Assembly: GCA_040307135.1 (NCBI GenBank)
Contig: JAWRKD010000130.1
Location: forward strand, 4,231-68,230
Length of the DNA stretch: 64,000 nucleotides
From: Desulfovibrionaceae bacterium
GTDB taxonomy: Bacteria; Desulfobacterota; Desulfovibrionia; Desulfovibrionales; Desulfovibrionaceae
Direction of reading: 5' to 3'
Of the stretch, positions 4,462 through 18,466 are shown one piece after another. A program made the position numbers and the translations under genes. The notes under the pieces are model-generated. The model worked only from the letters and a program-made list of their open reading frames with translations. It was not told the origin of the DNA and searched no databases. Numbering within the stretch: the stretch's first letter is position 1; every line of letters begins with the position of its first letter.

Positions 4462-4464
4462 ACG

Positions 4465-4491
4465 CAAAAAAGCCGCCTCCATTGCGGCGGC
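4465..4491 (-). terminator. Candidate intrinsic terminator downstream of the MarR gene
   Basis: GCCGCC-N8-GGCGGC hairpin (4472-4491). On the minus strand it is followed by a T6 run (complement of A6 at 4466-4471). It lies between the convergent pgm and marR-type genes. Confidence 0.4.
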
Positions 4492-4526
4492 GGCCATACA
4501 ACCCATTCTTTTTCCTGACTATCGAT

Positions 4527-5042: not shown

Positions 5043-5053
5043 GGCGGCACCTC

Positions 5054-5082
5054 GTTAGGGGCCATATAGTATGGCCCCTAAC
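5054..5082. promoter_or_regulatory. Perfect 13-bp-arm palindrome (candidate MarR operator and/or trpA terminator)
   Basis: GTTAGGGGCCATA-TAG-TATGGCCCCTAAC. It starts 12 nt upstream of the MarR start codon and ends 23 nt downstream of the trpA stop. Confidence 0.45.
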
Positions 5083-5104
5083 GAATGTCAAGTCCGCCCT
5101 GGGA

Positions 5105-5869: not shown

Positions 5870-5896
5870 GATGATCTCTCCGTTGGCTATCCGGTT

Positions 5897-7060
5897 TCAG
5901 CCCTGGCTCTCGGCCACGATGCCCAGGTCCTTGTCCCCGCGGCCCGAGAGGCAGACGATGACGCTCTGGCCCTTGAGCTCGGCGGCGTTCTCCAGGACCC
6001 AGGCCAGGGCATGGCAGGATTCCAGGGCCGGGATCACGCCCTCGCCCCGGGTCAGGGCCTGGAACGCGGCCAGGGCCTGGCGGTCGTTGGCCAGGCGGTA
6101 TTCGGCCCGGCCGGCGGCCTGGAGCGCCGCGTGCTCCGGCCCCACGCCCGGGTAGTCCAGGCCCGGGGCGATGGAGTGCGAGGGCAGGATCTGGCCCTCG
6201 TCGGTCTGCAGGAGCTGGGTGCGCATGCCATGGAGCACGCCGGGACGGCCCAGGTTCAGGGGCGCGGAGTTGTAGCAGCCCGGCTCGCCCGAGCCCGCGG
6301 CCTCCACGCCGATGAGCCGCACCTCGCGGTCCGGGATGAACTCGTGGAACATGCCGATGGCGTTGGAGCCGCCGCCCACGCAGGCCACCACGGCGTGCGG
6401 CAGGCGGCCGTTCTTCTCCAGGAACTGGGCCCGGGCCTCGCGGCTGATGACGGTCTGGAACTCGTGCACCAGCTCCGGGAAGGGATGCGGACCGGCGGCC
6501 GTGCCGAAGCAGTAGTGGGCGGTCCGCTGTTCCGCGATCCAGTAGCGCAGGGCCGCGTTGATGGCGTCCTTGAGGGTCTGGGTGCCGGACTCCACGGCCA
6601 CCACGCGCGCGCCCAAAAGCTCCATGCGCTGGACGTTGTGGGACTGCCGCTGCACGTCCACCGCGCCCATGAAGACCACGCACTCCAGGCCGAAGCGCGC
6701 CGCGGCCGTGGCCGTGGCCACGCCGTGCTGGCCCGCTCCGGTCTCGGCCATGAGCACGCGCTTGCCGATCATCCGGGTGAGCAGGCCCTGGCCGATGGTG
6801 TTGTTGATCTTGTGCGAGCCGGTGTGGTTCAGGTCCTCGCGCTTGAGCCAGATGTCCACGCCCGTGGCCGCCGAGAGCGTGGGGCAGAAGGTCAGGGGCG
6901 AGGGACGGCCCACGTAGTCCTTGAGTTCCGCGGAGTAGCGCGCCCTGAACTCGTCGGTGCGCACCACCTCGGCCAAAACCTTCTCCAGCTCCAGAAGCGG
7001 CGGCATGAGCAGCTCGGGCACGAACTGTCCGCCGAAGTCGCCGAAATAGCCTTTCTTCAT
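5897..7060 (-). CDS. trpB: Tryptophan synthase beta chain
   Basis: Internal ATG at 7060 gives 387 aa, starting MKKGYFGDFGGQFVPE. PLP-lysine motif LNHTGSHKINN; GGGSNAIG. The start overlaps the trpF stop by 4 nt (ATGA). Confidence 0.95.
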   Translation of the reverse strand: MKKGYFGDFGGQFVPELLMPPLLELEKVLAEVVRTDEFRARYSAELKDYVGRPSPLTFCPTLSAATGVDIWLKREDLNHTGSHKINNTIGQGLLTRMIGKRVLMAETGAGQHGVATATAAARFGLECVVFMGAVDVQRQSHNVQRMELLGARVVAVESGTQTLKDAINAALRYWIAEQRTAHYCFGTAAGPHPFPELVHEFQTVISREARAQFLEKNGRLPHAVVACVGGGSNAIGMFHEFIPDREVRLIGVEAAGSGEPGCYNSAPLNLGRPGVLHGMRTQLLQTDEGQILPSHSIAPGLDYPGVGPEHAALQAAGRAEYRLANDRQALAAFQALTRGEGVIPALESCHALAWVLENAAELKGQSVIVCLSGRGDKDLGIVAESQG

Positions 7061-7704
7061 GACCTCTCTCCCCGCTGTTGGATGTTGCGCCCGGCAAGCC
7101 GCAGAACCTGCGCGATCTTGTCCGGGTTCTTGATGCCCGGGGCGTCCTCCACCCCGGAGTTGCAGTCCAGGCCAAAGGGCGCGCAGGCCGCCAGGGCGGC
7201 CGCCACGGTGTCCGGGCCGAGCCCGCCCGCCAGGAACCAATCCTTCGGCATCACAGCCTGTTGTAAATATGTCGCATCAATGCTCCGGCCGTGGCCGCCG
7301 CCCGCGCTTCCGGCGTCCAGGAGCAGGTAGCGGCAGCAGTCCGCAAAGGCCGCGGCCTCGACCTCCAAGGCCTGGCGCGAGCCCAGGGCCTCGGGCCAGA
7401 GCACCTTGACGACCCGCTCCGGTCCCACGGCCCGGCAGAACCCCCGGTCTTGGCCCCCGTGGAGCTGGGCCAGGTCCAGACCGGCCAGATCCATGATCCG
7501 GTTCACCTCGTCCGCGGTCTGGCGCACGAAGAGCCCCACCTTGAGCCCGCGGCCCCGCTGGAAACGGGCGGCAAAGGACGGATCCACGCAACGTGGGCTG
7601 CCGGAATGGAAGATGAAGCCGAGGAAGTCCACGCCCAGGTCCTGGCAGGCCAGCACGTCCTGACTGCGGGTCAGGCCGCAGACCTTGATCCGCACCGGGT
7701 TCAC
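7057..7704 (-). CDS. trpF: N-(5'-phosphoribosyl)anthranilate isomerase
   Basis: 215 aa. VRIKVCGLTR...GVDFLGFIF...SPR...LDAGSAGGGHGRSID...FLAGGLGPD is TrpF-like. It sits between trpC and trpB. Confidence 0.9.
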   Translation of the reverse strand: MNPVRIKVCGLTRSQDVLACQDLGVDFLGFIFHSGSPRCVDPSFAARFQRGRGLKVGLFVRQTADEVNRIMDLAGLDLAQLHGGQDRGFCRAVGPERVVKVLWPEALGSRQALEVEAAAFADCCRYLLLDAGSAGGGHGRSIDATYLQQAVMPKDWFLAGGLGPDTVAAALAACAPFGLDCNSGVEDAPGIKNPDKIAQVLRLAGRNIQQRGERS

Positions 7705-8465
7705 GGCCGCCCTCCCCGCGCCAGGGCGGCCAGGGCCGCGCCGGGGTCGGCGCTGGACATGAGCGAGGTGCCCACCAGCACGGCCCCGAAGCCCAGGTCG
7801 CGCATCTCGGCCACCTGCTCCGGCCGGTCGATGCCGCTGGCGCTGATCCAGAACTCGCCCGCCCCGCGCTGCGGGGCCAGCCGCCGCGACACGTCCAGGC
7901 CCACCCGCAGGGTGTCCAGATCGCGGTTGTTCACCTGGAGGAGCGTGGCCCCGGAATCCCGCGCCAGGCCCAGGTCGGCCTCGTCGAAGACCTCCACCAC
8001 GGCCTCCAGGCCCAGGCCCTCGGCCTGCTCGCGCAGGCTGCGCAGCTCCGTGGCCGCGCCGAACATGCGCGCGATGAGCAGGAGCGCCGAGGCCGAGGTG
8101 GCCGCGGTCTGGGCCACCTGGAGCGGATGAAAAAGGAAGTCCTTGCGCAACAGCGGCAGGCCCGGCCCGGTCATGGCCGCGAGAAATTCAAGCCGGCCCT
8201 GGAAATAGGCCTCCTCGGTGAGCACGGAGAGGGCCGCGGCCCCGGCCCGGGCATACATGGCGGCCACATCGCCGGGCTCCAGCCCCAGGTTGATGACGCC
8301 CTTGGACGGCGAGGCCCGCTTGTACTCGGCAATGACCGCGCAGGGGCCCTTGGCCTCCAGTCCGGCCCGGAAGCCCGGCCGCGCGCCGGGCAGCGGGGGC
8401 GGCGGGCCCTGGGCCAGCAGCCGCTCGATCTCGGCCTGTTTGGCCTGGCGGAAACGCTCAAGCAT
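7701..8465 (-). CDS. trpC: Indole-3-glycerol phosphate synthase
   Basis: 254 aa. VIAEYKRASPSKG...LSVLTEEAYFQG...LLRKDFL...QVNNRDL...SGI are TrpC motifs. It overlaps trpF by 4 nt. Confidence 0.9.
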   Translation of the reverse strand: MLERFRQAKQAEIERLLAQGPPPPLPGARPGFRAGLEAKGPCAVIAEYKRASPSKGVINLGLEPGDVAAMYARAGAAALSVLTEEAYFQGRLEFLAAMTGPGLPLLRKDFLFHPLQVAQTAATSASALLLIARMFGAATELRSLREQAEGLGLEAVVEVFDEADLGLARDSGATLLQVNNRDLDTLRVGLDVSRRLAPQRGAGEFWISASGIDRPEQVAEMRDLGFGAVLVGTSLMSSADPGAALAALARGGRP

Positions 8466-9453
8466 GGGGGGCCTCCGGGCTCAGGCCCCGGGCCACCTTG
8501 GCCCTGGCCTCCTCCAGACAGTCGGCCAGGGGCCGCTCCGTGAGGAGCGAAAGACAGGCCGCCAGGTTCAGGGCGGTCATGTCCTGCATAGCCGCGTTGC
8601 CTTGGCCCGCCAGCACGGCCTTGAGCGCGGCCACGGCCTGGTCCTTGCCCTCGGCGCGCACTCCCTCGGGCTTGTGCAGGGGCAGGCCCAGGGCCTGGGG
8701 GTCGATCTCCAGGGACTCCACCGCGCCGCCCCGCACGAGCCGGGCCTGGGCCGGGCCGAAGGGGGTCAGTTCGTCGTAGCCGCCGAAGCCGTGCACCACC
8801 AGGGCGTGCTCCACGCCGGTGAGGGCCAGGGTCCGGGCCATGAGGTCCAGGGCCTGGGGCACGCCCACGCCCAGGAGCTGATGCGTGGGCCGGGCCGGGT
8901 TCAGGAGCGGCCCCATGAGGTTGAACAGGGTGCGGATGCCCAGTTCCCGGCGCACCGGCACCACGTGGGCGAAGGCCGGATGAAAGGCCGGGGCGAAGAG
9001 GAACACGAAGTTGCGGCGCGCAAGCTCCCGCGCGGCCTCCTCGGGCTCCTTGGGCAGGGGCAGGCCCAGGGCCTCCACCGCATCGGCGCTGCCGCAGGAC
9101 GAGGACACGGCGCGGTTGCCGTGCTTGACCACCTTGTGCCCCATGTCCGCCAGGAACAGGGCCACGGCCGTGGAGCAGTTGAAGCTGCACGAGCCGTCGC
9201 CGCCCGTGCCGCAGGTGTCGATGCGCGCGCCGGAAAGCCCCTCCACCCGGCGGGCGTGGCCCAGGGCCGCGTTCACGGCCGCGGCCAGTTCCTCCGGGGT
9301 CTCGCCCTTGGCCCGCAGGCCCATGAGCAGGGCCCCGGCCTGGGCCTGGGTCAGCTCCCCGGACATGAGCGCGCCGAAGGCCGCGCCCACCTGTTCCGCG
9401 CCCAGGTCCTGGCCCCGGGCCAGGGTCTCCAGAATGTCGCGAAGACCGTCCAT
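8458..9453 (-). CDS. trpD: Anthranilate phosphoribosyltransferase
   Basis: 331 aa. IDTCGTGGDGSCSFNCST...VVKHGNRAVSSSCGSADVL-like...FLFAPAFHPA are TrpD signatures. Confidence 0.95.
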   Translation of the reverse strand: MDGLRDILETLARGQDLGAEQVGAAFGALMSGELTQAQAGALLMGLRAKGETPEELAAAVNAALGHARRVEGLSGARIDTCGTGGDGSCSFNCSTAVALFLADMGHKVVKHGNRAVSSSCGSADAVEALGLPLPKEPEEAARELARRNFVFLFAPAFHPAFAHVVPVRRELGIRTLFNLMGPLLNPARPTHQLLGVGVPQALDLMARTLALTGVEHALVVHGFGGYDELTPFGPAQARLVRGGAVESLEIDPQALGLPLHKPEGVRAEGKDQAVAALKAVLAGQGNAAMQDMTALNLAACLSLLTERPLADCLEEARAKVARGLSPEAPHA

Positions 9454-9463
9454 GTTCCCCTCC

Positions 9464-10048
9464 TCAGGCCGCCTGCGCGGGCTGCGTGTTCAGGAAGTTG
9501 GCCAGGAGCGCCGGCCCCTGGGGCGTGAGAATGGATTCGGGATGAAACTGCACCCCGGCCCAGGGCCGGTCCAGGTAGGCGAGCCCCATGACCTCGCCCT
9601 CGGCCGTGCGGGCCGTGGTCCGCAGCGCCTGCGGGGCCTCGTGGGCCAGCACCAGGAGCGAATGGTAGCGGCAGACCTCGAAGGGATTGGGCAGCCCCGC
9701 GAAGAGGCCCGCGCCCTCGTGCTCCACCAGGGAGGTCTTGCCGTGCATGATGCGCTCGGCGCGCACCACCGAGGCCCCGGCGTGATGGCCCAGGATCTGG
9801 TGGCCCAGGCACACGCCCAGCACAGGCACGCTTTTGGGCAGCCGCTTCAGGAATTCCAGGCAGAGCCCGGCGTTCTCCGGACGGCTGGGGCCGGGCGAGA
9901 TGCAGACCCGCGACAGCCTGCCGCCGGCGGCCAGCTCCAGGACCTCGGGCCGGTCGTTGCGATAGACCACGGGGTCGGCCCCCAGCTGCTGGAATGCCTG
10001 CACCAGGTTGAAGGTGAAGGAGTCGAAATTATCGATGAGCAAAAACAT
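9464..10048 (-). CDS. trpG: Anthranilate synthase component II (glutamine amidotransferase)
   Basis: 194 aa. MFLLIDNFDSFTFNLVQ...ISPGPSRPE...PVLGVCLGHQ...VQFHPES is a class-I GATase triad context. It overlaps the trpE 3' end by 20 nt. Confidence 0.9.
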   Translation of the reverse strand: MFLLIDNFDSFTFNLVQAFQQLGADPVVYRNDRPEVLELAAGGRLSRVCISPGPSRPENAGLCLEFLKRLPKSVPVLGVCLGHQILGHHAGASVVRAERIMHGKTSLVEHEGAGLFAGLPNPFEVCRYHSLLVLAHEAPQALRTTARTAEGEVMGLAYLDRPWAGVQFHPESILTPQGPALLANFLNTQPAQAA

Positions 10049-11441
10049 CGCCGTCCTCCTTGCCCCGGATCACCTCGCGCAGCACCCGGGCCTTGTTGTT
10101 GGCCTCCTGCCATTCCTTTTCCGGCACCGAATCATAGACCAGCCCGGCCCCGGCCTGCCAGGAGACCCTGCCGTCTCGGATCCACATGCTGCGGATGGTG
10201 ATGCCCGTGTCCAGGCTCACCGCCCCCTTGTCCAGGCCGAGCCAGCCGATGCACCCGGCGTAGGGTCCCCGGTTGCGGCGCTCCATCTCCGCGATGGTCC
10301 GCATGGCCCAGATCTTGGGCGCGCCGGACACGGTGCCCGCCGGGAAGGTGGAGGCCAGCACGTCCAGGGCGTCCAGGCCGTCCCGCAGCTGGGCCTCCAC
10401 GTAGGAGGTCAGGTGCATGACGTGGGAGAACCGCTCCACCTGCATGAACTTTTCCACCCGCACCGTGCCCGGGGCCGCGATGCGGCCCAGGTCGTTGCGT
10501 CCCAGGTCCACGAGCATGACGTGCTCGGCCCGCTCCTTGGGATCGGCCAGCATGTCCTCGGCCAGGGCCTGGTCCTGCTCCGGCGACTTGCCCCGGGGCC
10601 GGGTCCCGGCGATGGGCCGCACCTCCAGCCTGCCCCGCTCGCAGCGCACCATCATCTCCGGCGAGGAGCCCACCAGGATCACCTCGGGGAAGCGCATGAA
10701 GAACATGAACGGCGAGGGATTGGCCTGGCGCAGGCGGCGGTAGATGGAGAAGCCGTCCTCGCAGGCAGGCACCGAGAAGCGCGTGGAGAGCACCAGCTGG
10801 ATGCCCTCGCCCGCGGTGATGAGCTCCTTGGCCTTGCGCACGCCCTCACAATACTCTTCGCGGCCGGGCGAAACCTCGGGCTCGTCCGGGCAGCCGCCGC
10901 TGCCCGGCTCCAGGGACACGGCCATGGGTTCGGGCCGGGCGTCCCGGTCCAGGGCCAGGAAGCAGCAGCGGTGGCGCAGGTGGTCGAAGAGCACCACGCG
11001 GCCCGCCAGCACCAGGCAGGACTCGGCCTCGGCCGGAGGCACGGCCTGGGCCAGGGCCGGTTCGAACATGCCCGCCGTGTTGTAGCCGAAGTAGCCGTAA
11101 AGCCCGCGGGTGAGCGCGGGCAGCTCGCCCACGCCTTCGTCCGGCGTCAGGACCAGGCGCTGCATGACCCGGCGCACGCCCTCCAGGAAAGGCAGGCCCT
11201 CCAGGTCCCTGAGCCCCGCCAGGCGCTCGTCCGCCATGTCCAGGGCCAGCCTCCCGTCCCGGGGCGTCAACCGCAGGCGGAAGTCCCAGGCCATGAGGCT
11301 GAAGCGGCCCAGGCGGCCGTCCACCTCGGCGCTCTCCAGGAGAATGCCGGGCTTCTCTCCCACCAGGCTCAGGTAGAGGCTGATGGGCGTCTGCACGTCG
11401 GCCGGAAGCCACTGTCCGTATTGTTGCAAGCGAATGTCCAT
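10029..11441 (-). CDS. trpE: Anthranilate synthase component I
   Basis: 470 aa. LLESAEVDGRLGRFS...; C-terminal chorismate-binding domain SPEMMVR...IAGTRPRG...HVMLVDLGRNDLG...FPAGTVSGAPK...YAGCIGW. RBS GGGAGGAAACA. Confidence 0.95.
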   Translation of the reverse strand: MDIRLQQYGQWLPADVQTPISLYLSLVGEKPGILLESAEVDGRLGRFSLMAWDFRLRLTPRDGRLALDMADERLAGLRDLEGLPFLEGVRRVMQRLVLTPDEGVGELPALTRGLYGYFGYNTAGMFEPALAQAVPPAEAESCLVLAGRVVLFDHLRHRCCFLALDRDARPEPMAVSLEPGSGGCPDEPEVSPGREEYCEGVRKAKELITAGEGIQLVLSTRFSVPACEDGFSIYRRLRQANPSPFMFFMRFPEVILVGSSPEMMVRCERGRLEVRPIAGTRPRGKSPEQDQALAEDMLADPKERAEHVMLVDLGRNDLGRIAAPGTVRVEKFMQVERFSHVMHLTSYVEAQLRDGLDALDVLASTFPAGTVSGAPKIWAMRTIAEMERRNRGPYAGCIGWLGLDKGAVSLDTGITIRSMWIRDGRVSWQAGAGLVYDSVPEKEWQEANNKARVLREVIRGKEDGDVFAHR

Positions 11442-11454
11442 GTTTCCTCCCGTG

Positions 11455-11492
11455 TGAAAAACGAAGGCCGCGCCCCTGTGCGGGGCGCGGCC
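11455..11492 (-). terminator. Intrinsic terminator/attenuator immediately upstream of trpE
   Basis: Minus-strand RNA reads GGCCGCGCCCC-GCACA-GGGGCGCGGCC followed by UUCGUUUUUCA. The tail ends about 3 nt before the trpE RBS. The structure lies 31 nt after the tyrA stop. Confidence 0.6.
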
Positions 11493-11523
11493 TGTATTCC
11501 TCTGCCGTCTGAGCTCTCGCTCA

Positions 11524-12297
11524 CTACCGCCCCGCCCCGTTTCCGTCTCGCCACCACCAGCCGGCCTGGTCGGCCAGCAGGTCCAGGTCGCCCCCGGCGG
11601 CCAGAGCCAGGAGGCTGCGGAAGCGGCGCACCGCCTCCTGGCTGAAGGGGTTGGAATCCGCGATGACGCCGAACATCTCGCGGTCCTGGGTGAGCATCTT
11701 GCGGGCCGAGTCCAGCCGCCGCTGGAGCGAGGGAGTCAGGAAGCGGCCCTGGGGGTCCACCTCGCGCAAGCTCGCCAGGTAGGCCACCGTGGTGGTGAAG
11801 TTGAGGCCCTGGACCACGGCCAGGGCGCGATCGTGCTCCTCGGCCGTGCAGAAGAACGGGCTGTAGCCCAGCTTCTGCAGGAAAGCGGACACGGCCCGGG
11901 CAGCGGCCTCGTCCCGGCCCGGGCAGACCGCCACCCGGGGCTCGAAGCCCTCGGGGATCACCGGCCCGAACAGGGGATGCGCGCCCACCACGGCCCCGGA
12001 AAAGGCCTCGAGCATCTGCTTGAGCGGCAGCACCTTCACGGAGCAGAGGTCGGCCAGGATGCAGCCGGGGTCCAGCTCCGGGGCCACGGCGTCCAGGACC
12101 GCGCCCATCTTGTTGATGGGCACGGATAAGAGCACCAGGTCCACGCCGCGCACGGCCGCGTCCACGCGCTCCGGCGTGAGCGGACGGCTCAGGGGGCGGA
12201 CCTCCAGACCGGCGCGGCGGGCGGCCTCCACGAACAGGGCCCCCATCTGCCCCCCGGCCCCCGCCACGGCCAGGCTCCGCACGAGCCGCTCAGCCAC
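11524..12297 (-). CDS. tyrA: Prephenate dehydrogenase
   Basis: 257 aa. N-terminal Rossmann motif LAVAGAGGQMG...DLVLLSVPI...ILADLCSVK...VGAHPLFGP. The C-terminal tail ends ...ADQAGWWWRDGNGAGR. Confidence 0.85.
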   Translation of the reverse strand: MAERLVRSLAVAGAGGQMGALFVEAARRAGLEVRPLSRPLTPERVDAAVRGVDLVLLSVPINKMGAVLDAVAPELDPGCILADLCSVKVLPLKQMLEAFSGAVVGAHPLFGPVIPEGFEPRVAVCPGRDEAAARAVSAFLQKLGYSPFFCTAEEHDRALAVVQGLNFTTTVAYLASLREVDPQGRFLTPSLQRRLDSARKMLTQDREMFGVIADSNPFSQEAVRRFRSLLALAAGGDLDLLADQAGWWWRDGNGAGR

Positions 12298-13636
12298 GTC
12301 CGGCCTCCCGGGCGGCCGCGGCCACCGTGTCCCACTGCGTAAAGAAGCCGGGGAAGGACTTGGCCACGCAGCCGGGGTTGTCCAGGGCCACGTCCACCCC
12401 GGCCAGGGAGTACAGGGACAGGCTCATGGCCATGCGGTGGTCGTTGTGGGACGAAAGCGGGACCGCGCGGTCCTTGACCGGGGTCCCGGGAATGACGCGG
12501 ATGCCGTCGGACAGAAGCTCGGCGCCGCAGCCCGCGCGCGCGATCTCCGAGGCCAGGGCCCCCAGGCGGTCGGATTCCTTGATGCGCAGGTGCGCCACGT
12601 TGCGGATGACGGTCTCGCCCCGGCCCAGGGACGCGGCCACGGCCACGGTGGGCACCAGGTCCGGGCAGTGGCCCATGTCCAGGTCCGCGCCCCGGAGCCC
12701 GTCCGGAGCTGGCTCCACCAGGACGCTGCCGCCCTGCCAGGACACGGCGGCGCCCATGCGCTGCAGGATGTCGAGGATGGCCCGGTCGCCCTGGAGCGAA
12801 TCCGGCCGCAGACCGGCCACGCTCACGGGGTTGGGACCCAGGGCCCCGGCGGCCAGGAAATAGGAGGCGTTGCTCCAGTCGCCCTCCACCTTGTAGTCCC
12901 GGGCCTGATAGACCCCGGGCTCCATGACGAAGCGGATGGCCCCGGGCCGGGCCTCGAAGGCGCGGCCGCGGGAAACCGCCGTCCAGCGGTCCGCGTCCAG
13001 GAGCTTCACGCGGGCGGCCACGCCGAAGTCCTCCAGCACCTGCAAGGTCAGGGCCACGTAAGGCCAGGACACCACCTTGGAGCCGCCCACGCCGATGGTC
13101 AGCGGACCGCGGGCCAGGGGCGCGGCCAGGAGCAGGCCCGAAAGGTACTGGCTGCTCTCCTCCATGGAGATGGTCAGGGAACCGCCGGACAGGCCCCGGG
13201 TGGCGAGGACCACGGGCGGGTATCCGGGCGCGGCCTCGTAGCCCGCCACGACGCCCTGGGACTCCAGGGCGCGGAAGATCTCGCCGATGGGCCGTTCGTG
13301 CATCCGGCCCTCGCCGTGGATGCGGAAAGCGCCGCTCCCCGCGGCCAGGACCCCGGCCAGCAGGCGGCAGGTGGTGCCGGACTCGCCCACGTTCATGTCC
13401 GCGGGCCGCTCCGGGCTGCCGCCCTGGGGCCCCTGGCGCATGCCCGTGACCGTGGCGGCCTCGAAGCCGCCGTCAAAGACCGCGCCGCAGGTCTCCAGGC
13501 AGGCCCGGGTGCGCCGGAGATCCTGGCTGTCCAGGAGCCCGCTCACGCGGGACCGGCCCGGGGCCAGGGACGCAGCGATGAGCGCCCGGTGGGACATGGA
13601 CTTGGAGGCCGGGGCCTGGACGGAAACCGTGTGCAC
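12290..13636 (-). CDS. aroA: 3-phosphoshikimate 1-carboxyvinyltransferase (EPSP synthase)
   Basis: Proposed GTG start at 13636 (RBS AGGGGAGG), 8 nt after the pheA stop, gives about 448 aa. PASKSMSHRALIAASLA...LDSQDLRRT...GESGTTCRLLAG...IKESDRL...SHNDHRMAMS are EPSPS motifs. The ORF-track start at 13741 would overlap pheA by 95 nt. Confidence 0.85.
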   Translation of the reverse strand: MHTVSVQAPASKSMSHRALIAASLAPGRSRVSGLLDSQDLRRTRACLETCGAVFDGGFEAATVTGMRQGPQGGSPERPADMNVGESGTTCRLLAGVLAAGSGAFRIHGEGRMHERPIGEIFRALESQGVVAGYEAAPGYPPVVLATRGLSGGSLTISMEESSQYLSGLLLAAPLARGPLTIGVGGSKVVSWPYVALTLQVLEDFGVAARVKLLDADRWTAVSRGRAFEARPGAIRFVMEPGVYQARDYKVEGDWSNASYFLAAGALGPNPVSVAGLRPDSLQGDRAILDILQRMGAAVSWQGGSVLVEPAPDGLRGADLDMGHCPDLVPTVAVAASLGRGETVIRNVAHLRIKESDRLGALASEIARAGCGAELLSDGIRVIPGTPVKDRAVPLSSHNDHRMAMSLSLYSLAGVDVALDNPGCVAKSFPGFFTQWDTVAAAAREAGRG

Positions 13637-13646
13637 CGCGCCTCCC

Positions 13647-14756
13647 CTAGCCCATGGTCTCGATGTGCGGCCCGGCCGGGTAGGAGCCCAGGACCTTGAG
13701 GGTGTGGCAGCGCTGGCGCAGCTCGGCCAGGAAGCTCTCATACTCGGCCTTGCTCAGGTCGCACTCGAGGTCGGTGAAGAACACGTACTTCCACTTCTCG
13801 CCGCGCAGGGGCCTGGACTCCAGCTTGGTGATGTTGATGGCCCGGCCCGCGAAGGAGTCGAGCACCTCGGCCAGGGCGCCGGGCTTGTCCGGCACGGTGA
13901 AGAGGATGGAGGTCTTGTCCCGCGAGGGCTCGGTGTTGGGCCGTGGCCCGATGACCAGGAAGCGCGTCCAGTTGTCCGGGGCGTCCTCGATGTGCTCGGC
14001 CAGGACGTTCAGGCCGTAGCGGTCGGCCAGGCGCACGTGGCCCACGGTGGCCACCTCGGGTCCGCGGCGGAAGGCGATCTCGGCCGCGGCCGCGGTGCTG
14101 GCCTCGGGCACCAGAGTCCGGCCGGGCATGTTGTTCCGCAGCCAATGGGCGCACTGGTCCAGGGGCTGGGGATGGGAGTGGATCTCGCGCACCTCGGCCG
14201 TGTTCGCGGCCTTGCCCATGAGGCAGTGGGTGATGCGGCTGAACAGCTCGGCCTGGATGAACACCGGGAAGAGCATGAAGAGGTCCACCACCTGGCCCAC
14301 GGTGCCCTGGAGCGAGTTCTCCAACGGGATGACGCCCAGCTCGGCCTCGCCGTCGGACACGGCCCGGAAGATGTCCTCGAAGTTGGCCCGCGGCGACAGC
14401 TCGGCCGAGCGGCCCATGTACTCCAGGCCCGCGAAATAGGAGAAGGTGCCCTCGGGCCCCAGATAGACCACGCGTTCGGGGCGCTGGAGGCGGCGCGAGG
14501 AGGACATGATCTCGCGGTAGATGGCCCGCAGGTGGCTCTCGGGCAGGGGCCCGGCGTTGCGGGCGTTGAGCCGGTCCAGGACCTCCTTCTCGCGGAAGGG
14601 CTTGAAGACCGTCTCGATGGAGTCGGCTTTGGCGCGGCCCACGGCCACGCTGATGGCGGCCCGCTGGTTGAGCAGGTCCAGGATCTGGTCGTCCAGCCCG
14701 TCGATGGTTTTGCGCAGCTGGAGCAGGTCCAGTTCGAGGCTGTGGTTGCCGTCCAT
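13647..14756 (-). CDS. pheA: Bifunctional chorismate mutase / prephenate dehydratase (P-protein)
   Basis: 369 aa. N-terminal chorismate mutase helix LRKTIDGLDDQILDLLNQRAAISVAVGRAK; prephenate dehydratase domain YLGPEGTFSY...IPLENSLQGTV; ACT domain TSILFTVPDKPGALAEVL...INITKLESRP. Confidence 0.9.
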   Translation of the reverse strand: MDGNHSLELDLLQLRKTIDGLDDQILDLLNQRAAISVAVGRAKADSIETVFKPFREKEVLDRLNARNAGPLPESHLRAIYREIMSSSRRLQRPERVVYLGPEGTFSYFAGLEYMGRSAELSPRANFEDIFRAVSDGEAELGVIPLENSLQGTVGQVVDLFMLFPVFIQAELFSRITHCLMGKAANTAEVREIHSHPQPLDQCAHWLRNNMPGRTLVPEASTAAAAEIAFRRGPEVATVGHVRLADRYGLNVLAEHIEDAPDNWTRFLVIGPRPNTEPSRDKTSILFTVPDKPGALAEVLDSFAGRAINITKLESRPLRGEKWKYVFFTDLECDLSKAEYESFLAELRQRCHTLKVLGSYPAGPHIETMG

Positions 14757-14758
14757 GC

Positions 14759-15730
14759 TCAGCCTTCCTTGATGTCTTCGCGGATGCGCATGCCGAAATG
14801 GCGGCCGGGTTCGTCCACGCGCACGAGCACCTCGTCCCCGGGTTTGAGCGCGACCACGCTCACGGGTTCGCCGCCGGGCCGGGTCAGCCGGATGGTCTCG
14901 GCGTTCTGCAGGAAGACCTGCCCGCTCTTGCCCCCCGCCTCGGCCGTGACCAGGAGCATGGGCCGCACCTCCACCTTGACCCGGCCCACGGTGGCCAGGC
15001 TGGAGGACCCGGCGGCGTCCACCACGAGCACGTCGCGGCCCGCGGCCAGCTCCTCCAGGTAGCTCGTCTTGTCGCCGGGCATGACGCAGTATGCGTGCAC
15101 GGCCCCGGCATTGACCCGGAAGGGACGCGCCGCCACGTAGGGATTGGACTCGGTCTCGGCGTGCACCAGGAAGGTGAAGGCGCTGGAATTGCCCACCAGC
15201 ATGCCCTGGCCCTTTTTGAGCATGGAGATGGTGTCCACGCAGACCCGGTGGCCCAGCCCGGCGTGGCGGATCTCCGTGACCCGGGCCGGAACCAGGGGCT
15301 GCACGCCCTGGGCCAGCTTGACCTCGGCCACGATGGCCTTGAGCTCCCCGGCCGCCTCGGGCAGGACCACGATGGTCTCGGCCCCGCGCTCCAGGACGCC
15401 CGCGGCCAGCCTGGCCCGGTCCAGGGACTCCACTTCCAGGCCCACGTCCGGGGCCTGGGCCAGGATGTTCTCCACCGGGATGATCTCCCAGCCCTTGGCC
15501 AGGACCACGCGCTCCCCGGCCTTGAGGCGGCGCACGGCCTCCTCCTCGTCGGACTTGGCGGCCAGCGCCACCACCGGCAGGTCCTCGGGGGTCAGGACCT
15601 GGACCCGGCCCAGGGCGCGCACAGCCTCGACCTTGTCCGCGCTGGTGAGCACGGCGTCCACGCCGGACTCCAGGGCCAGGGTCACGAGCTTTTTGTCAAA
15701 CGGCAGGGCCTTGAACACGATGGTCTTCAT
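14759..15730 (-). CDS. 3-dehydroquinate synthase type II (archaeal-type, AroB')
   Basis: 323 aa. The family was recognised from the overall sequence (e.g. VCVDTISMLKKGQGMLVGNSSAFTFLVHAETESNPYVAARPFRVNAGAVHAY). It sits next to an ADH-synthase-like aldolase at the head of the aro operon. Confidence 0.8.
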   Translation of the reverse strand: MKTIVFKALPFDKKLVTLALESGVDAVLTSADKVEAVRALGRVQVLTPEDLPVVALAAKSDEEEAVRRLKAGERVVLAKGWEIIPVENILAQAPDVGLEVESLDRARLAAGVLERGAETIVVLPEAAGELKAIVAEVKLAQGVQPLVPARVTEIRHAGLGHRVCVDTISMLKKGQGMLVGNSSAFTFLVHAETESNPYVAARPFRVNAGAVHAYCVMPGDKTSYLEELAAGRDVLVVDAAGSSSLATVGRVKVEVRPMLLVTAEAGGKSGQVFLQNAETIRLTRPGGEPVSVVALKPGDEVLVRVDEPGRHFGMRIREDIKEG

Positions 15731-15731
15731 G

Positions 15732-16532
15732 CTAGTCCTCGCCCGCGATGGCCAGGGCCTCTTCCACGGAAGCGCCCTTGTGCACCACGGCGTTGAGCGC
15801 CCGGGTCAGGGCCGCGGGGTCCTTGTGCTGGAAGATGTTGCGGCCCACGGACAGGCCCGCGCCGCCCGCGGCCAGGGAGTCCCGGACCATTTCCAGGAAG
15901 GCCTTGGTGCTGTTCAGCTTGGGGCCGCCCGCGATGACCACGGGGATGCAGCAGGCCGCCACCACCTGGGAAAAGCTCTCGGGGTCGCCGGTGTAGGGCA
16001 CCTTGACCACGTCCGCGCCGAGCTCCATGCCCACGCGGGCGCAGTGAGCCACCACGTCCGGGTCGAATTCGTCGGTGATCTTGGGGCCGCGGGCATAGAC
16101 CATGGCCAGAAGCGGCATACCCCACTCCGTGGCCCGGGAGGCGATGGTCCCCAGGTCGCGGAGCATGGCGGGCTCGGTCTCGTCGCCCAGGTTCACGTGC
16201 ACGGACACGCCGTCCGCGCCCAGGCGCAGGGCGTCCTCCACGCTGGCGCAGAGGGCCTTGGCGTTGGGAAAGGGCGAGAGCGTGGTGCTGGCCGAGATGT
16301 GCACGATGAGACCCACGTCGCGGCCGTGCGTGCGGTGGCCGCAGCGCACCAGCCCCTTGTGCATGAGCACGGCGTTGGCCCCGCCTGTGGCCACGGCGCC
16401 CACGGCCGCGCGCATGTCCACCAAGCCAGCGATGGGACCCACGGTGACGCCGTGGTCCATGGGCACCACCACGGTGCGGTGCGTGTCGCGGTCAAAAATC
16501 CGTTCCAGTCTGATGCTTTTCCCCAGATGCAT
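15732..16532 (-). CDS. 2-amino-3,7-dideoxy-D-threo-hept-6-ulosonate (ADH) synthase-like class I aldolase (AroA', DhnA family)
   Basis: 266 aa. [13 protein letters not shown]...ANAVLMHKG...[12 protein letters not shown]...[10 protein letters not shown]...[10 protein letters not shown] is a DhnA-type class I aldolase pattern. RBS GGAGGAGG. It is the first gene of the aro-trp supraoperon. Confidence 0.8.
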
Positions 16533-16580
16533 GGCCGTCCTCCTCCAGTTTGGCGCCCTTCGCTGGTCCCGGCTCCGGCG

Positions 16581-16623
16581 GCTGAAACAAGAAGGGCCGC
16601 CGGCTTTGCGCCTGCGGCCCTTC
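16581..16623 (-). terminator. Leader terminator (attenuator) of the aromatic supraoperon
   Basis: Minus-strand RNA reads GAAGGGCCGC-(AGGCGCAAAGCCG)-GCGGCCCUUC followed by UUGUUUCAG. The loop can extend the stem through GGC/GCC. It lies about 48 nt upstream of the first gene's ATG and 32 nt after the leader ORF stop. Confidence 0.6.
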
Positions 16624-16655
16624 GAAGAGGCTTGGTTTTCTGCAGCTACCCTTGG

Positions 16656-16748
16656 CTACAGTGCACCTCTCCCGAAACCGCAAGCGCGGGTGCGCCAATA
16701 ATACCAATAGCCATAAAAAAAGGAGTTGCGGGGTTCGGAGAGGTTCAT
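16656..16748 (-). CDS. Aromatic amino acid leader peptide (30 codons), not in the ORF track
   Basis: ATG at 16748-16746, TAG at 16658-16656. Translation is MNLSEPRNSFFYGYWYYWRTRACGFGRGAL. Codons 10-18 (FFYGYWYYW) are 8/9 Phe/Tyr/Trp. A terminator hairpin follows. Confidence 0.6.
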   Translation of the reverse strand: MNLSEPRNSFFYGYWYYWRTRACGFGRGAL

Positions 16749-17005
16749 GGGCAATGCCCTATCCCAGTTGGCCGGAGGCTGTCAACAGTTTTCTCTTCCA
16801 ACCAGTGGGATTGCGGCGCCTTTTCCCCGGCCGTTTCATTTCCCTAGATAAGGGCGCAGCCCTTGCGCCATTTTTATACGGTTTTTTCTTTTTTGTGAAT
16901 TCTTTCTCACCAGTCATGACACGATTGTTATACAATAAACATTTTTGAAGAGTATTTCCCCCGGCCATCGCAAATACAATCAATAATTTCTTGATGTTGT
17001 AAAAG

Positions 17006-17021
17006 TGGCCCGGGGTTTGCT
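17006..17021 (+). promoter_or_regulatory. Sigma-54 (-24/-12) promoter of amtB-glnK
   Basis: TGGCCCGGGGTTTGCT matches TGGCAC-N5-TTGCW with correct GG-N10-GC spacing. It lies 45 nt upstream of the amtB ATG. An AT-rich upstream region carries inverted repeats. Confidence 0.6.
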
Positions 17022-17065
17022 TTGCGCCTCGCATCCCATCCCGCACACTTTTAAGGAGGAAGCGT

Positions 17066-18466
17066 ATGTTGTTCAGCAAGTCGCCGACCGGATTCCGGCT
17101 GAGCAGGACCCTCGGGGGGGCGGTCCTGTTCGGCCTCGCCCTGGCCCCTGCCCTGGCCCTGGCCCAGGATGCTCCCGCCGAGGCCGCCTCTGCCGCCGAA
17201 AACGTGGTGGAGTATCTCACCCAGTCCAACGCCAACATCATGTGGACGCTCATCGCGTCCGTGCTGGTCATGTTCATGCAGGCCGGCTTCGCCATGGTCG
17301 AGGCCGGTCTGACCCGGGCCAAGAACACCGGCAACATTCTCATGAAAAACATGTTCGACTTCGCCGCCGGTTCCGTGACCTTCTACATCCTCGGCTTCGG
17401 CCTGATGATGGGTCTGGACCACGGCGGGTTCATCGGCCTGTCCAATTTCAACCTCTCGGACTGGACCCCGGCCACGGATGAAGGCCTCTGGGGCTTCACC
17501 TTCTGGTTCTTCCAGTGCGTGTTCGCCGCCACCGCCACCACCATCGTGTCCGGCGCCATCGCCGAGCGCACCAAGTTCGTGGCCTACCTCATCGCCTCCG
17601 TGGCCATCACCGGCCTCATCTACCCCGTGTCCGGCCACTGGATCTGGGGCGGCGGCTGGCTCTCCAAGCTGGAGGCCCCGATGATCGACTTCGCCGGCTC
17701 CACCGTGGTCCACTCCGTGGGCGGCTGGATCTCCCTGGCCGGCGCCCTGCTCATGGGACCGCGCATCGGCAAGTACTCGCCGGACGGCAAGTCCCGCGCC
17801 ATTCCGGGCCACAGCATGGCCCTGGTGGCCCTGGGCGTGTTCATCCTCTGGTTCGGCTGGTTCGGGTTCAACCCCGGCAGCACCGTGGCCGCGCAGGCGA
17901 ACATCGCCCTCATCGCCGTGACCACCAACCTGGCGGCCTGCACCGGCGGCCTGGCGGCCATGATCACCGCCTGGGTGCGCTACGGCAAGCCCGACGTCTC
18001 CATGAGCTTCAACGGCGTCCTGGCCGGTCTGGTGGCCATCACCGCCGGTTGCGCCAACGTGAGCCCGGACGGCGCCATGATCATCGGCCTGTTGGCCGGT
18101 GTGGCCGTTGTCCTCTCCGTGGACTTCATCGACAAGGTCCTCAAGATCGACGACCCGGTCGGCGCCATCTCCGTGCACGGCGTGTGCGGCGCCCTGGGCA
18201 CCATCTGCGTGGGCCTCTTCGCCAGCCCGGACTACGGCGGGGTGGCCGGCCTGTTCTACGGCGGCGGCATGACCCAGCTCACCACCCAGCTCATCGGCGT
18301 GGGCACCGTGTTCCTCTGGGCCTTCGGCACCGGTCTGGTCCTCTTCTTCATCCTCAAGGCCACCGTGGGCATCCGCGTGCCGGCCGAGGAAGAAATCAAG
18401 GGCCTGGACATCACCGAGCACGGCCAGGAGGCCTACAGCGGCTTCCAGATCTTCACCAACGAATAG
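17066..18466 (+). CDS. amtB: Ammonium transporter (Amt family)
   Basis: 466 aa. Signal peptide, then WTLIASVLVMFMQAGFAMVEAG...DFAGSTVVHSVGGW...GFNPGS...SVHGVCGALGT are Amt signatures. RBS AAGGAGGAAG. Confidence 0.95.
   Translation: MLFSKSPTGFRLSRTLGGAVLFGLALAPALALAQDAPAEAASAAENVVEYLTQSNANIMWTLIASVLVMFMQAGFAMVEAGLTRAKNTGNILMKNMFDFAAGSVTFYILGFGLMMGLDHGGFIGLSNFNLSDWTPATDEGLWGFTFWFFQCVFAATATTIVSGAIAERTKFVAYLIASVAITGLIYPVSGHWIWGGGWLSKLEAPMIDFAGSTVVHSVGGWISLAGALLMGPRIGKYSPDGKSRAIPGHSMALVALGVFILWFGWFGFNPGSTVAAQANIALIAVTTNLAACTGGLAAMITAWVRYGKPDVSMSFNGVLAGLVAITAGCANVSPDGAMIIGLLAGVAVVLSVDFIDKVLKIDDPVGAISVHGVCGALGTICVGLFASPDYGGVAGLFYGGGMTQLTTQLIGVGTVFLWAFGTGLVLFFILKATVGIRVPAEEEIKGLDITEHGQEAYSGFQIFTNE

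What the first reader, a model, noticed from the sequence alone, without database searches (positions are those of the whole stretch)
11455..11559. Trp-Trp-Trp in the C-terminal tail of TyrA, directly before a terminator in front of trpE: an internal attenuator without a separate leader peptide
TyrA ends ...ADQAGWWWRDGNGAGR*. The three consecutive TGG codons are at 11559-11551, nine codons before the stop at 11526-11524.

Thirty-one nt after the stop is a strong terminator: GGCCGCGCCCC-GCACA-GGGGCGCGGCC + UUCGUUUUU. It ends just before the trpE RBS.

The last four sense codons of tyrA (GGG GCG GGG CGG) can pair with the 5' arm of the terminator (CCGCGCCCC) in roughly 9 of 10 positions, giving a potential antiterminator.

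Proposed logic (inference):
- A ribosome that reaches the tyrA stop covers this segment, so the terminator forms.
- A ribosome stalled at WWW under Trp limitation leaves the segment free, so transcription reads through into trpEGDCFBA.

A full-length enzyme gene would thus double as the trp leader peptide. This would give Trp-specific control nested inside the general aromatic attenuator at 16.6 kb.
Basis: partly seen in the sequence, partly recalled or inferred. Interest (0 to 1): 0.75.

Follow-up and report, generated by a model that had tools for sequence, protein, structure and literature searches.

The report
Enzyme tail doubling as trp leader
The last dozen codons of the tyrosine-pathway enzyme TyrA, including three tryptophan codons in a row, appear to act as the "leader peptide" of a classical tryptophan attenuator sitting between tyrA and the trp genes. 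This layout is conserved across sulfate-reducing Desulfovibrionales and I found no description of it in the literature I could search.

Summary
TyrA (12297-11524, minus strand) ends ...GWWWRDGNGAGR*. A 12-bp GC-rich hairpin with a U-tract follows 30 nt after the stop, just before the trpE ribosome-binding site. The last tyrA codons can pair with the hairpin's 5' arm.

In 79 related loci the 12-gene aro/trp cluster is conserved.
- 70 loci carry WWW, and 56 of those, plus the window, have a terminator. None of the 9 loci with only WW has one.
- A segment complementary to the terminator's 5' arm starts 7-21 nt (median 15) after the last Trp codon and always lies next to or across the tyrA stop codon.
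- That segment changes together with the terminator arm between clades (0 of 10,000 permutations reach the observed fit).

So a ribosome stalled at WWW leaves the antiterminator free, while a ribosome at the stop codon covers it. No separate leader ORF and no anti-antiterminator was found.

Caveats:
- One W plus an aromatic residue is ancestral in TyrA.
- WWW persists in one lineage that has no trp genes downstream.
- There is no direct experiment. Published RNA-seq from D. hydrothermalis shows an expression break at this junction.

Verdict: a new variant of classical ribosome-mediated attenuation.

The parts
11524..12297 (-). tyrA (prephenate dehydrogenase), 257 codons plus TAG. The whole ORF serves as the translated 'leader'.
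   Evidence: Translation. NCBIfam prephenate dehydrogenase matches. Homologues carry PF02153.
11551..11559 (-). Three consecutive Trp codons (UGG UGG UGG), TyrA residues 247-249. Proposed stall site that senses charged tRNA-Trp.
   Evidence: They are the only Trp residues in the protein. WWW is conserved in 70 of 79 loci and in all 56 loci with a terminator.
11527..11550 (-). Eight tail codons (R D G N G A G R) between WWW and the stop. The peptide sequence is variable among orthologues (0 to about 30 residues after the run across all homologues, 2-11 codons in the terminator-bearing loci). The G-rich RNA content is conserved.
11528..11540 (-). Antiterminator strand ACGGGGCGGGGCG (plays the role of 'region 2'). 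It pairs with the terminator 5' arm. It starts 10 nt after the last Trp codon and ends 1 nt before the stop codon.
   Evidence: RNAduplex -25.6 kcal/mol. Minimum-free-energy fold when the 3' arm is absent. Equivalent strands in 56 other loci co-vary with their own terminator arms.
11524..11526 (-). tyrA stop codon UAG. A ribosome with this codon in its A site would cover the antiterminator strand.
   Evidence: The geometry is an inference from standard ribosome footprints (about -12 to +15 nt around the P site).
11510..11523 (-). Small hairpin UGAGC-GAGA-GCUCA between the antiterminator strand and the terminator. It forms the apical part of the antiterminator stem-loop and may be an RNA polymerase pause hairpin (inference).
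   Evidence: Small hairpins at a similar position in other clades, with different sequences, were seen by eye and in some folds. I did not test this systematically.
11465..11493 (-). Intrinsic terminator hairpin: 5' arm 11493-11482, loop 11481-11477, 3' arm 11476-11465.
   Evidence: 12 pairs, 11 G-C. -29.7 kcal/mol. Fold z-score -4.65 for 11600-11436. Conserved with compensatory changes.
11457..11464 (-). U-rich tract UCGUUUUU following the hairpin.
10029..11451 (-). trpE (anthranilate synthase I) with its ribosome-binding site GGGAGGA at 11451-11445. It is the first regulated gene. trpG, trpD, trpC and three more ORFs, taken to be trpF, trpB and trpA, follow down to about 5105.
   Evidence: NCBIfam names trpE, trpG, trpD and trpC. 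trpF, trpB and trpA are assigned only by position in the conserved cluster; I did not scan those three ORFs against family profiles.
16585..16748 (-). Context: operon-front aromatic attenuator. It comprises the leader ORF MNLSEPRNSFFYGYWYYWRTRACGFGRGAL* (16748-16656) and the terminator GGGCCGC...GCGGCCC plus U-tract (about 16620-16585), ahead of the aroA'-like gene at 16532.
   Evidence: Equivalent F/Y/W-rich leaders plus terminator in 61 loci.

Best explanation
This is a ribosome-mediated, tryptophan-responsive transcription attenuator placed inside an operon. The 3' end of the tyrA coding sequence plays the part of the leader peptide gene.

The 12-gene operon (aroA', aroB', pheA, aroA, tyrA, trpEGDCFBA) is transcribed from one promoter, past a first F/Y/W-rich leader attenuator.

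- **Trp plentiful.** At the tyrA-trpE junction the lead ribosome translates through WWW and sits on the tyrA stop codon. There it covers the G-rich antiterminator strand (11540-11528). The terminator hairpin (11493-11465) forms and most polymerases stop before trpE.
- **Trp scarce.** When charged tRNA-Trp is limiting, the ribosome stalls on UGG UGG UGG, and its leading edge ends a few nucleotides short of the antiterminator strand. That strand pairs with the terminator's 5' arm as soon as the arm is made. The terminator cannot form and transcription continues into the trp genes.

The sequence anatomy, its conservation, the co-variation and the spacing are shown here. Ribosome stalling, termination efficiency, the Trp response and any polymerase pausing are inferred. 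Unlike E. coli trpL, the ribosome itself replaces 'region 1'.
For: **Anatomy in the window.**

**Conservation.**
- Same gene order in 51 or more complete loci.
- WWW in 70 of 79 loci. Terminator (hairpin of -15 kcal/mol or better plus a T-run) in 56 of 70 WWW loci and in none of the 9 WW-only loci.
- The WW-only loci sit at four or more separate places in a TyrA tree.

**Antiterminator.**
- Median duplex energy is -23.5 kcal/mol, against -11.6 for 30-nt windows from the preceding 600 nt of coding sequence.
- It is the best window of all in 44 of 57 cases and in the top 5% in 55 of 57.

**Co-variation.**
- Humidesulfovibrio type: GGGACGCGGC pairs with GCCGCGTCCC.
- Pseudodesulfovibrio type: GGGGTGCGGC pairs with GCCGCACCCC.
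- Desulfomicrobium type: GGGGGACCCG pairs with CCGGATCCTCC.
- Window: GGGGCGGGGC pairs with GCCGCGCCCC.
- Permuting which locus's segment goes with which arm never reaches the observed mean, in 0 of 10,000 trials. The same holds for 39 non-redundant arms.
- Double changes occur at 15 arm positions.

**Geometry.**
- The strand starts 7-21 nt (median 15) after WWW.
- The stop codon moves from 10 nt before to 20 nt after the start of the strand, so a terminating ribosome always overlaps it.
- Folds that mimic a ribosome at WWW give the antiterminator. Folds that mimic a ribosome at the stop give the terminator, in 7 of 7 clade representatives.

**Association with trp genes.** L069 and L080 keep WWW, antiterminator and terminator although trpC, not trpE, follows.

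**Experimental hint.** In D. hydrothermalis RNA-seq, only trpE, trpG and trpD change at 10 vs 0.1 MPa. The five upstream genes of the same cluster do not (PMC4162548).
Against: - No experiment shows termination, stalling or a Trp response.
- W plus an aromatic residue at this position is ancestral in TyrA (WY or WF in distant homologues). Part of the run is therefore probably structural.
- WWW persists where the attenuator is absent. In L081, tyrA ends WWWKK* and is followed by an end-of-operon terminator and unrelated genes.
- Fourteen WWW loci fail my terminator test. Three are not informative: L001 and L005 have the hairpin but a weak T-run, and L051 is cut by the contig end. The other eleven (for example L002, L038, L040, L049, L079 and the L026/L030/L048 group) have no recognisable intrinsic terminator.
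- No anti-antiterminator or demonstrated pause site exists. Any lag of the lead ribosome, not only a lag at Trp codons, should therefore give read-through.
- At equilibrium the terminator is the more stable fold, so antitermination must be kinetic.
- The window's U-tract is interrupted (UUCGUUUUU).
- Pair counts come from duplexes optimised per locus, and the loci are phylogenetically related.
Confidence: 0.75

Rival explanations
1. A general coupling sensor rather than a Trp-specific one. The junction works like the E. coli rph-pyrE intercistronic attenuator, and the outcome depends only on how closely the lead ribosome follows RNA polymerase at the end of tyrA. The WWW run adds at most a bias.
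For: - No anti-antiterminator ('region 1') is present: median z +0.6, and only 1 of 57 loci has z below -2. Any lagging ribosome should therefore allow the antiterminator to form.
- There is a precedent for a full-length ORF whose stop-codon position relative to an attenuator loop sets downstream expression: rph-pyrE (PMC2784333).
Against: - WWW is present in every locus that has the terminator (56 of 56, plus the window). Where the terminator has decayed, the first W is replaced in nine loci at four or more separate places in the TyrA tree.
- The antiterminator is spaced from WWW, not from the stop codon.
- The regulated genes are precisely the trp genes, including in L069 and L080.
- rph-pyrE has no alternative antiterminator helix (my own knowledge).
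Confidence: 0.12
2. Coincidence of two ordinary features. WWW is a structural or functional motif of the TyrA C-terminus, and the hairpin is a constitutive partial terminator or RNA-stabilising stem that fixes the aro:trp expression ratio. There is no ribosome sensing.
For: - W plus an aromatic residue is ancestral at this position.
- W248 is invariant even in loci without a terminator.
- WWW is retained in L081 without trp genes downstream, and in 11 informative WWW loci with no recognisable terminator.
- The structure prediction gave no information on the tail: pLDDT below 50 for residues 238-257.
Against: - It does not explain why a copy of the terminator's 3' arm sits 13-16 nt after WWW in every clade and co-varies with the 5' arm.
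- It does not explain why the tail peptide is free to vary while its G-rich RNA is kept.
- It does not explain why the antiterminator can lie after the stop codon, where it cannot be under protein selection (Humidesulfovibrio, Pseudodesulfovibrio and Maridesulfovibrio types).
Confidence: 0.08
3. Regulation of the same terminator by a trans factor, such as a TRAP-like RNA-binding protein, uncharged tRNA (T-box) or a small RNA, rather than by the translating ribosome.
For: The B. subtilis trp operon is also nested in an aro supraoperon and uses a protein-controlled internal attenuator (TRAP; PMC3913778 appears's listing). The alternative helices as such do not say what selects between them.
Against: - No Rfam family, T-box included, matches at the gathering threshold or at E-values up to 10 in 11380-11700.
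- There are no (G/U)AG repeat arrays. The junction is only about 80 nt, and the antiterminator strand lies inside or flush with a translated ORF. Its fixed spacing from WWW has no meaning for a trans factor.
Confidence: 0.03

Closest known systems
Classical trp leader (trpL) attenuation of Enterobacteria and other bacteria
   Same: - Tandem Trp codons are translated just upstream of mutually exclusive antiterminator and terminator helices that precede trpE.
- A ribosome at the Trp codons frees the antiterminator, and a ribosome at the stop codon blocks it.
- Even the peptide end resembles E. coli trpL. WWWRDTA* or WWWRETA* in many relatives compares with GWWRTS* in E. coli (the E. coli sequence is from my own knowledge).
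- The spacing from the Trp codons to the antiterminator is about 15 nt.
   Different: - There is no short independent leader ORF. The translated 'leader' is the 257-codon enzyme gene tyrA.
- There is no region 1 or 1:2 anti-antiterminator/pause hairpin.
- The element is internal to an operon, not at its 5' end.
- It has three Trp codons, not two.
- It does not match Rfam.
E. coli rph-pyrE intercistronic attenuator
   Same: A full-length enzyme ORF (rph) ends just before an attenuator hairpin. Translation up to its stop codon decides whether the downstream biosynthetic gene is transcribed, and moving the stop codon changes expression (PMC2784333).
   Different: - The signal is UTP-dependent polymerase speed, not codon-specific stalling.
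- A close ribosome prevents termination there, which is the opposite polarity.
- There is no antiterminator helix and no run of regulatory codons (my own knowledge).
Chlamydia trachomatis YtgCR WWW motif
   Same: A WWW run inside a full-length functional ORF acts as a Trp sensor through ribosome stalling and controls trp gene expression (PMC7755916).
   Different: There the stall terminates transcription of the downstream YtgR repressor domain and acts indirectly by lowering repressor levels. Here the stall is proposed to prevent termination directly, in cis, at the junction with the trp genes.
B. subtilis aro supraoperon with the TRAP-controlled trp leader
   Same: The trp genes lie downstream of aro genes in one supraoperon. 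An internal attenuator subjects read-through transcripts to Trp-specific control, giving nested two-level regulation.
   Different: The sensor is the TRAP protein binding (G/U)AG repeats, not a translating ribosome, and no coding sequence is involved (my own knowledge; TRAP attenuation paper PMC3913778 listed).
Previously noted attenuator of the D. vulgaris aroA'>aroB'>pheA>aroF>tyrA>[trp] supraoperon
   Same: Same gene cluster. Song et al. 2005 list a predicted attenuator for it (PMC1173090).
   Different: That prediction, as far as the text shows, is the attenuator ahead of the supraoperon, which corresponds to the 16.7-kb leader here. No element between tyrA and trpE is mentioned.

Membership tests
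Ribosome-mediated (leader-peptide) transcription attenuators of amino-acid operons | A translated ORF with consecutive codons for the regulating amino acid, upstream of the regulated genes | tested here: met
   In-frame UGG UGG UGG at 11559-11551 in tyrA. Conserved in 70 of 79 loci. Translation is inferred from homology of the whole ORF.
Ribosome-mediated (leader-peptide) transcription attenuators of amino-acid operons | An intrinsic terminator between the ORF and the first regulated gene | tested here: met
   Hairpin 11493-11465 plus U-tract. Present in 56 of 70 WWW loci. Termination activity itself was not tested.
Ribosome-mediated (leader-peptide) transcription attenuators of amino-acid operons | An antiterminator helix mutually exclusive with the terminator | tested here: met
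   Strand 11540-11528 pairs with the 5' arm. It is specific compared with upstream coding windows and co-varies across clades.
Ribosome-mediated (leader-peptide) transcription attenuators of amino-acid operons | Spacing such that a ribosome at the regulatory codons leaves the antiterminator free and a ribosome at the stop codon masks it | tested here: met
   The strand starts 7-21 nt (median 15) after WWW, and the stop codon lies within or next to the strand in all 57 cases. Fold mimics agree. Footprint sizes are taken from general knowledge.
Ribosome-mediated (leader-peptide) transcription attenuators of amino-acid operons | A short, dedicated leader ORF (roughly 14-50 codons) with its own start codon | tested here: not met
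   The only ORF carrying the Trp codons is the 257-codon tyrA. No other plausible ORF exists in the junction.
Ribosome-mediated (leader-peptide) transcription attenuators of amino-acid operons | An anti-antiterminator or pause hairpin (1:2) overlapping the regulatory codons | tested here: not met
   No excess complementarity between the antiterminator strand and the 57 nt around WWW: median z +0.6, with 1 of 57 loci below -2.
Ribosome-mediated (leader-peptide) transcription attenuators of amino-acid operons | Read-through increases on starvation for the cognate amino acid | not testable with these tools
   Only indirect evidence. D. hydrothermalis RNA-seq shows trpE, trpG and trpD changing independently of the five upstream genes (PMC4162548).
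Rfam leader families (e.g. Trp_leader) and T-box | A match to the covariance model at the gathering score | tested here: not met
   No hit in the whole window at the gathering threshold. Only chance hairpin hits at E-values up to 10 in 11380-11700.
rph-pyrE-type intercistronic coupling attenuator | A full-length upstream ORF whose stop codon lies close to the attenuator | tested here: met
   The tyrA stop is 30 nt before the hairpin and adjacent to the antiterminator strand.
rph-pyrE-type intercistronic coupling attenuator | A close ribosome disrupts the terminator directly, with no alternative helix and no regulatory codon run | tested here: not met
   Here a conserved antiterminator helix and a WWW run exist, and a ribosome at the stop codon does not reach the hairpin.

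The most novel reading that the evidence does not exclude
A housekeeping enzyme's own C-terminal tail is a true trp leader peptide across an entire bacterial order.

- An ancestral structural W-aromatic motif at the end of TyrA was extended to WWW.
- The variable tail and the first nucleotides after the stop codon were recruited as the antiterminator.
- The translating ribosome replaced 'region 1'.

If this is right, attenuators can be embedded at gene junctions with no leader ORF at all. Leader-peptide search tools would miss such a class, and it may exist at other junctions of biosynthetic operons.
Probability: 0.65. Interest if true: 0.8.

Novelty: new variant of a known kind. Interest (0 to 1): 0.72.

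Why it matters
- It would extend the textbook attenuation model. The sensing ORF need not be a dedicated mini-gene, and the ribosome can substitute for the anti-antiterminator.
- It shows a plausible evolutionary route: a structural Trp at a protein's C-terminus, next to the genes that make Trp, is taken over as a sensor.
- It explains how Desulfovibrionales run a single 12-gene aromatic operon and still control the costly Trp branch separately. Phe or Tyr shortage opens the first gate only. Trp shortage opens both.
- Practically, tyrA C-terminal tags, truncations or transposon insertions near its 3' end in these organisms should alter trp gene expression. Annotation pipelines that look for leader peptides only in intergenic DNA will miss such elements.

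Tried and rejected
- **Rfam.** Whole window at the gathering threshold, and the junction and the 16.7-kb leader at E-values up to 10. Only chance hairpin hits.
- **Separate leader ORF in the junction.** The only other ORF (11557-11369, GTG, a different frame) runs through the terminator into trpE and has no Trp run. Rejected.
- **Structural role of the tail.**
  - The AlphaFold2 model from 17 sequences has pLDDT below 50 for residues 238-257, so it is uninformative.
  - A PDB profile search aligns H. influenzae TyrA (2pv7) only up to residue 212.
- **Anti-antiterminator ('region 1').** No signal.
- **Trp depletion of upstream genes.**
  - TyrA has no other Trp in 62 of 79 loci.
  - aroA has 8 and trpE has 7, so there is no operon-wide depletion. 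This is weak evidence only.
  - The seven aimed at prior descriptions found nothing on a tyrA-trpE attenuator.
  - Rodionov et al. 2004 (PMC545781) has no text on trp or attenuators. My memory that it described one was wrong.
  - Merino, Jensen and Yanofsky 2008 and Price et al. 2011 are not held. An earlier description in subscription journals therefore cannot be excluded.
- **Model strain.** I could not retrieve D. vulgaris Hildenborough itself, because the genome scan returned only the best 80 of at least 563 loci.
Full report
**1. Observation**

On the minus strand the window carries a 12-gene cluster:
- an ADH-synthase-like aldolase (16532-15732)
- a type II dehydroquinate synthase (15730-14759)
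- pheA (14756-13647)
- aroA (13741-12290)
- tyrA (12297-11524)
- trpE (11441-10029), trpG, trpD and trpC
- three more ORFs, taken to be trpF, trpB and trpA from their position in the conserved cluster

The first nine genes are named from NCBIfam matches. The last three ORFs were not scanned, and their order is conserved in related loci.

TyrA ends ...ADQAGWWWRDGNGAGR*. The three UGG codons are at 11559-11551 and the stop at 11526-11524. A 12-bp hairpin with 11 G-C pairs and a 5-nt loop lies at 11493-11465, followed by UCGUUUUU. It was the strongest terminator-like site in 4000-18000, at -29.7 kcal/mol. The trpE ribosome-binding site and ATG follow within 25 nt. The region 11600-11436 folds far better than shuffles (z -4.65).

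**2. Is the W-run more than chance?**

Trp makes up 0.9% of 24 other long ORFs in the window, and the run holds the only Trp residues in TyrA.
- Of the 120 best homologues (55-96% identity), 116 have WWW near the C-terminus. It is usually followed by R and then 2-22 variable residues.
- A second Desulfovibrio clade has WWW in 109 of 119.
- In 79 genomic loci with an intact 3' end, 70 have WWW and 9 have WW. These loci come from Desulfovibrionaceae, Desulfomicrobiaceae, Desulfohalobiaceae and Desulfonatronum, at 45-89% TyrA identity.

Not all of this conservation is regulatory. More distant TyrA proteins (35-45% identity), including E. coli-type T-proteins, end the same helix with WY or WF. One W plus an aromatic residue is therefore ancestral and probably structural. 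WWW is a derived extension of that motif.

**3. The junction is a conserved attenuator**

I printed the tyrA-to-trp junction for all loci and saw the same three-part layout in every major clade. WWW is followed by a short variable tail. Then comes a G-rich segment that repeats the terminator's 3' arm, then a small hairpin, then the terminator with its T-run.

The repeated segment changes in step with the terminator arm:

| Clade | Antiterminator | Terminator 5' arm |
|---|---|---|
| Humidesulfovibrio type | WWWRDTA-UAG-GGACGCGGC | GCCGCGTCCC |
| Pseudodesulfovibrio type | WWWRNESY-UAG-GGGTGCGGC | GCCGCACCCC |
| Maridesulfovibrio type | UAG-GGAGAA | TTCTCCC |
| Desulfomicrobium type | GGGGGACCCG (inside the tail WWWRKQHDAGGPAS) | CCGGATCCTCC |
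| Window and L001 | GGGGCGGGGC (inside the tail) | GCCGCGCCCC |

Quantitative results:
- A hairpin of -15 kcal/mol or better with a T-run is present in 56 of 70 WWW loci plus the window, and in none of the 9 WW-only loci.
- The duplex between the 30 nt that start 6 nt after WWW and the terminator's 5' arm has a median of -23.5 kcal/mol. Windows from the preceding 600 nt of the same gene give -11.6. The post-WWW window beats every control window in 44 of 57 cases and is in the top 5% in 55 of 57.
- Re-assigning post-WWW segments to other loci's arms never reached the observed mean in 10,000 permutations. The same held for 39 non-redundant arms.
- Anchored pair tables over 51 non-redundant loci show double (compensatory) changes at 15 arm positions for the antiterminator and 14 for the terminator. 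These duplexes were optimised per locus and the loci are related, so the counts are supportive rather than formal statistics.

**4. Geometry**

The antiterminator strand starts 7-21 nt (median 15) after the last Trp codon. Its start relative to the stop codon ranges from -20 to +10. It may lie in the coding tail or just after the stop, but it always overlaps the roughly 12-15 nt on either side of the stop that a terminating ribosome occupies (footprint size from general knowledge). Because some versions lie after the stop, the segment cannot be explained by selection on the protein.

I ran folds that mimic the two ribosome positions on seven clade representatives, the window included.
- RNA that starts 10 nt after WWW and ends before the 3' arm folds into the antiterminator, a long stem capped by the small hairpin, at -13 to -40 kcal/mol.
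- RNA that starts 13 nt after the first base of the stop codon folds into the terminator.
- With the full sequence free, the terminator is the equilibrium fold. Antitermination must therefore be kinetic, as in classical attenuators.

**5. What is missing compared with trpL**

- There is no separate leader ORF.
- There is no anti-antiterminator. Complementarity between the antiterminator strand and the 57 nt around WWW is no better than for control windows (median z +0.6).
- The predicted default for an untranslated or uncoupled transcript is therefore read-through. Termination requires a ribosome at the stop codon at the moment the terminator is transcribed.
- Whether the small hairpin acts as a polymerase pause site that synchronises the two machines is speculation.

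**6. Link to the trp genes**

- The element goes with the trp genes rather than with trpE itself. L069 and L080 have WWW, antiterminator and terminator followed by trpC-F-B-A.
- Where tyrA and trpE abut or overlap there is no room for a terminator. Three of these loci have WW only (L032, L033, L057), and two keep WWW (L002, L038).
- WW-only loci occur at four or more separate places in a TyrA tree. All lack the terminator, and some show remnants of the arm. The first W seems to become free to change once the attenuator decays.
- The reverse does not hold. Fourteen WWW loci fail my terminator test. L001 and L005 have the hairpin but a weak T-run, and L051 is cut by the contig end. The other eleven have no recognisable intrinsic terminator.
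- In a gut-type Desulfovibrio lineage, tyrA ends WWWKK* and is followed by an end-of-operon terminator and unrelated genes (L081).
- Two other trp-unlinked tyrA genes have lost the run: L083 ends RRWLEKH* and L084 has ARWFADEE.
- Overall, WWW is invariant where the attenuator exists and variable where it does not.

**7. Nested control**

- The operon-front leader (window 16748-16656, MNLSEPRNSFFYGYWYYWRTRACGFGRGAL*) and its terminator (about 16620-16585) are real.
- Equivalents exist in 61 loci, including WW-only ones.
- The inferred logic is that any aromatic shortage opens the first gate, and only Trp shortage opens the second.
- Published RNA-seq from D. hydrothermalis fits an independent control point at this junction. 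At 10 vs 0.1 MPa only trpE, trpG and trpD change significantly (log2 about -2.6 to -2.7). At 26 MPa the whole cluster changes (PMC4162548).

**8. Comparison with known systems**

- It works like classical trpL attenuation, but two defining features of that family are not met: the dedicated leader ORF and the 1:2 hairpin. It matches no Rfam model.
- It shares with rph-pyrE the use of a full-length ORF whose stop codon position governs an intercistronic attenuator (PMC2784333). The signal and the polarity differ.
- It shares with Chlamydia YtgCR a WWW sensor inside a functional ORF (PMC7755916). That system acts indirectly through repressor dosage.
- The D. vulgaris supraoperon was known, with a predicted attenuator at its front only (PMC1173090).
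- I found no description of the internal element in the searchable library. Several relevant subscription papers were not available.

**9. Verdict**

It is a new variant of a known kind of regulation, conserved across an order of bacteria. Direct experimental proof is lacking. I put about 0.75 on a Trp-responsive, ribosome-mediated attenuator.

Noticed in passing
window 16585-16748 (minus strand): Operon-front attenuator. The leader ORF MNLSEPRNSFFYGYWYYWRTRACGFGRGAL* is followed by the terminator GGGCCGCAGGCGCAAAGCCGGCGGCCC plus a U-tract, ahead of the aroA'-like gene. F/Y/W-rich leaders with a near-identical terminator occur in 61 related loci. This is probably the attenuator listed for D. 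vulgaris in PMC1173090.
   Followed up: partly
L012, L024, L028, L037, L055 (Pseudodesulfovibrio-type loci), 19-22 nt after the terminator hairpin; shorter form in L009, L011, L013: A strong Shine-Dalgarno sequence and a conserved mini-ORF M-x-x-T-UGA lie directly after the T-run. In five loci the frame continues past the in-frame UGA to a conserved peptide ...[KR]K.EN[RQ]KK.KGW[EQ]VIPRPYH*. Possible explanations are selenocysteine, stop-codon read-through or a re-initiation device. It is not present in the window, and the tyrA-trpE gap in these loci is 206-750 nt.
   Followed up: partly
L069 and L080 (Desulfohalobiaceae / Thermodesulfobacteriota MAGs), downstream of tyrA: tyrA with WWW, antiterminator and terminator is followed by trpC-trpF-trpB-trpA. 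trpE, trpG and trpD are absent from the locus.
   Followed up: partly
L026, L030, L048 (and L031), tyrA-trpE junction: WWW is kept, but in place of the usual terminator there is a different GC-rich structure with no T-run, as read by eye from the sequences. It consists of GCCGGGGGC...GCCGCC-TTTC-GGCGGCCCCC right after the stop, plus a second GGGGGC copy and a hairpin abutting the trpE ribosome-binding site. It may be a different read-out, translational or Rho-dependent.
   Followed up: no
L081 3300-3360 and L082 3275-3350 (gut-type Desulfovibrio): In L081, tyrA ends WWWKK*. A terminator starts 4 nt after the stop, and no trp genes follow. L082 (WWWKEAR*) has a long G/C-rich hairpin without a T-run, and the contig ends soon after.
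   Followed up: partly
window 12290-12297 and 13647-13741: The tyrA GTG start overlaps the aroA stop by 8 nt (GTGGCTGA), which suggests translational coupling. The longest aroA ORF overlaps the end of pheA by 95 nt, so its true start is probably further downstream.
   Followed up: no
window 11524-12297 and orthologues: TyrA contains no Trp outside the C-terminal run, both in the window and in 62 of 79 orthologues; 16 orthologues have one and 1 has two. The local background is 0.9% Trp.
   Followed up: partly
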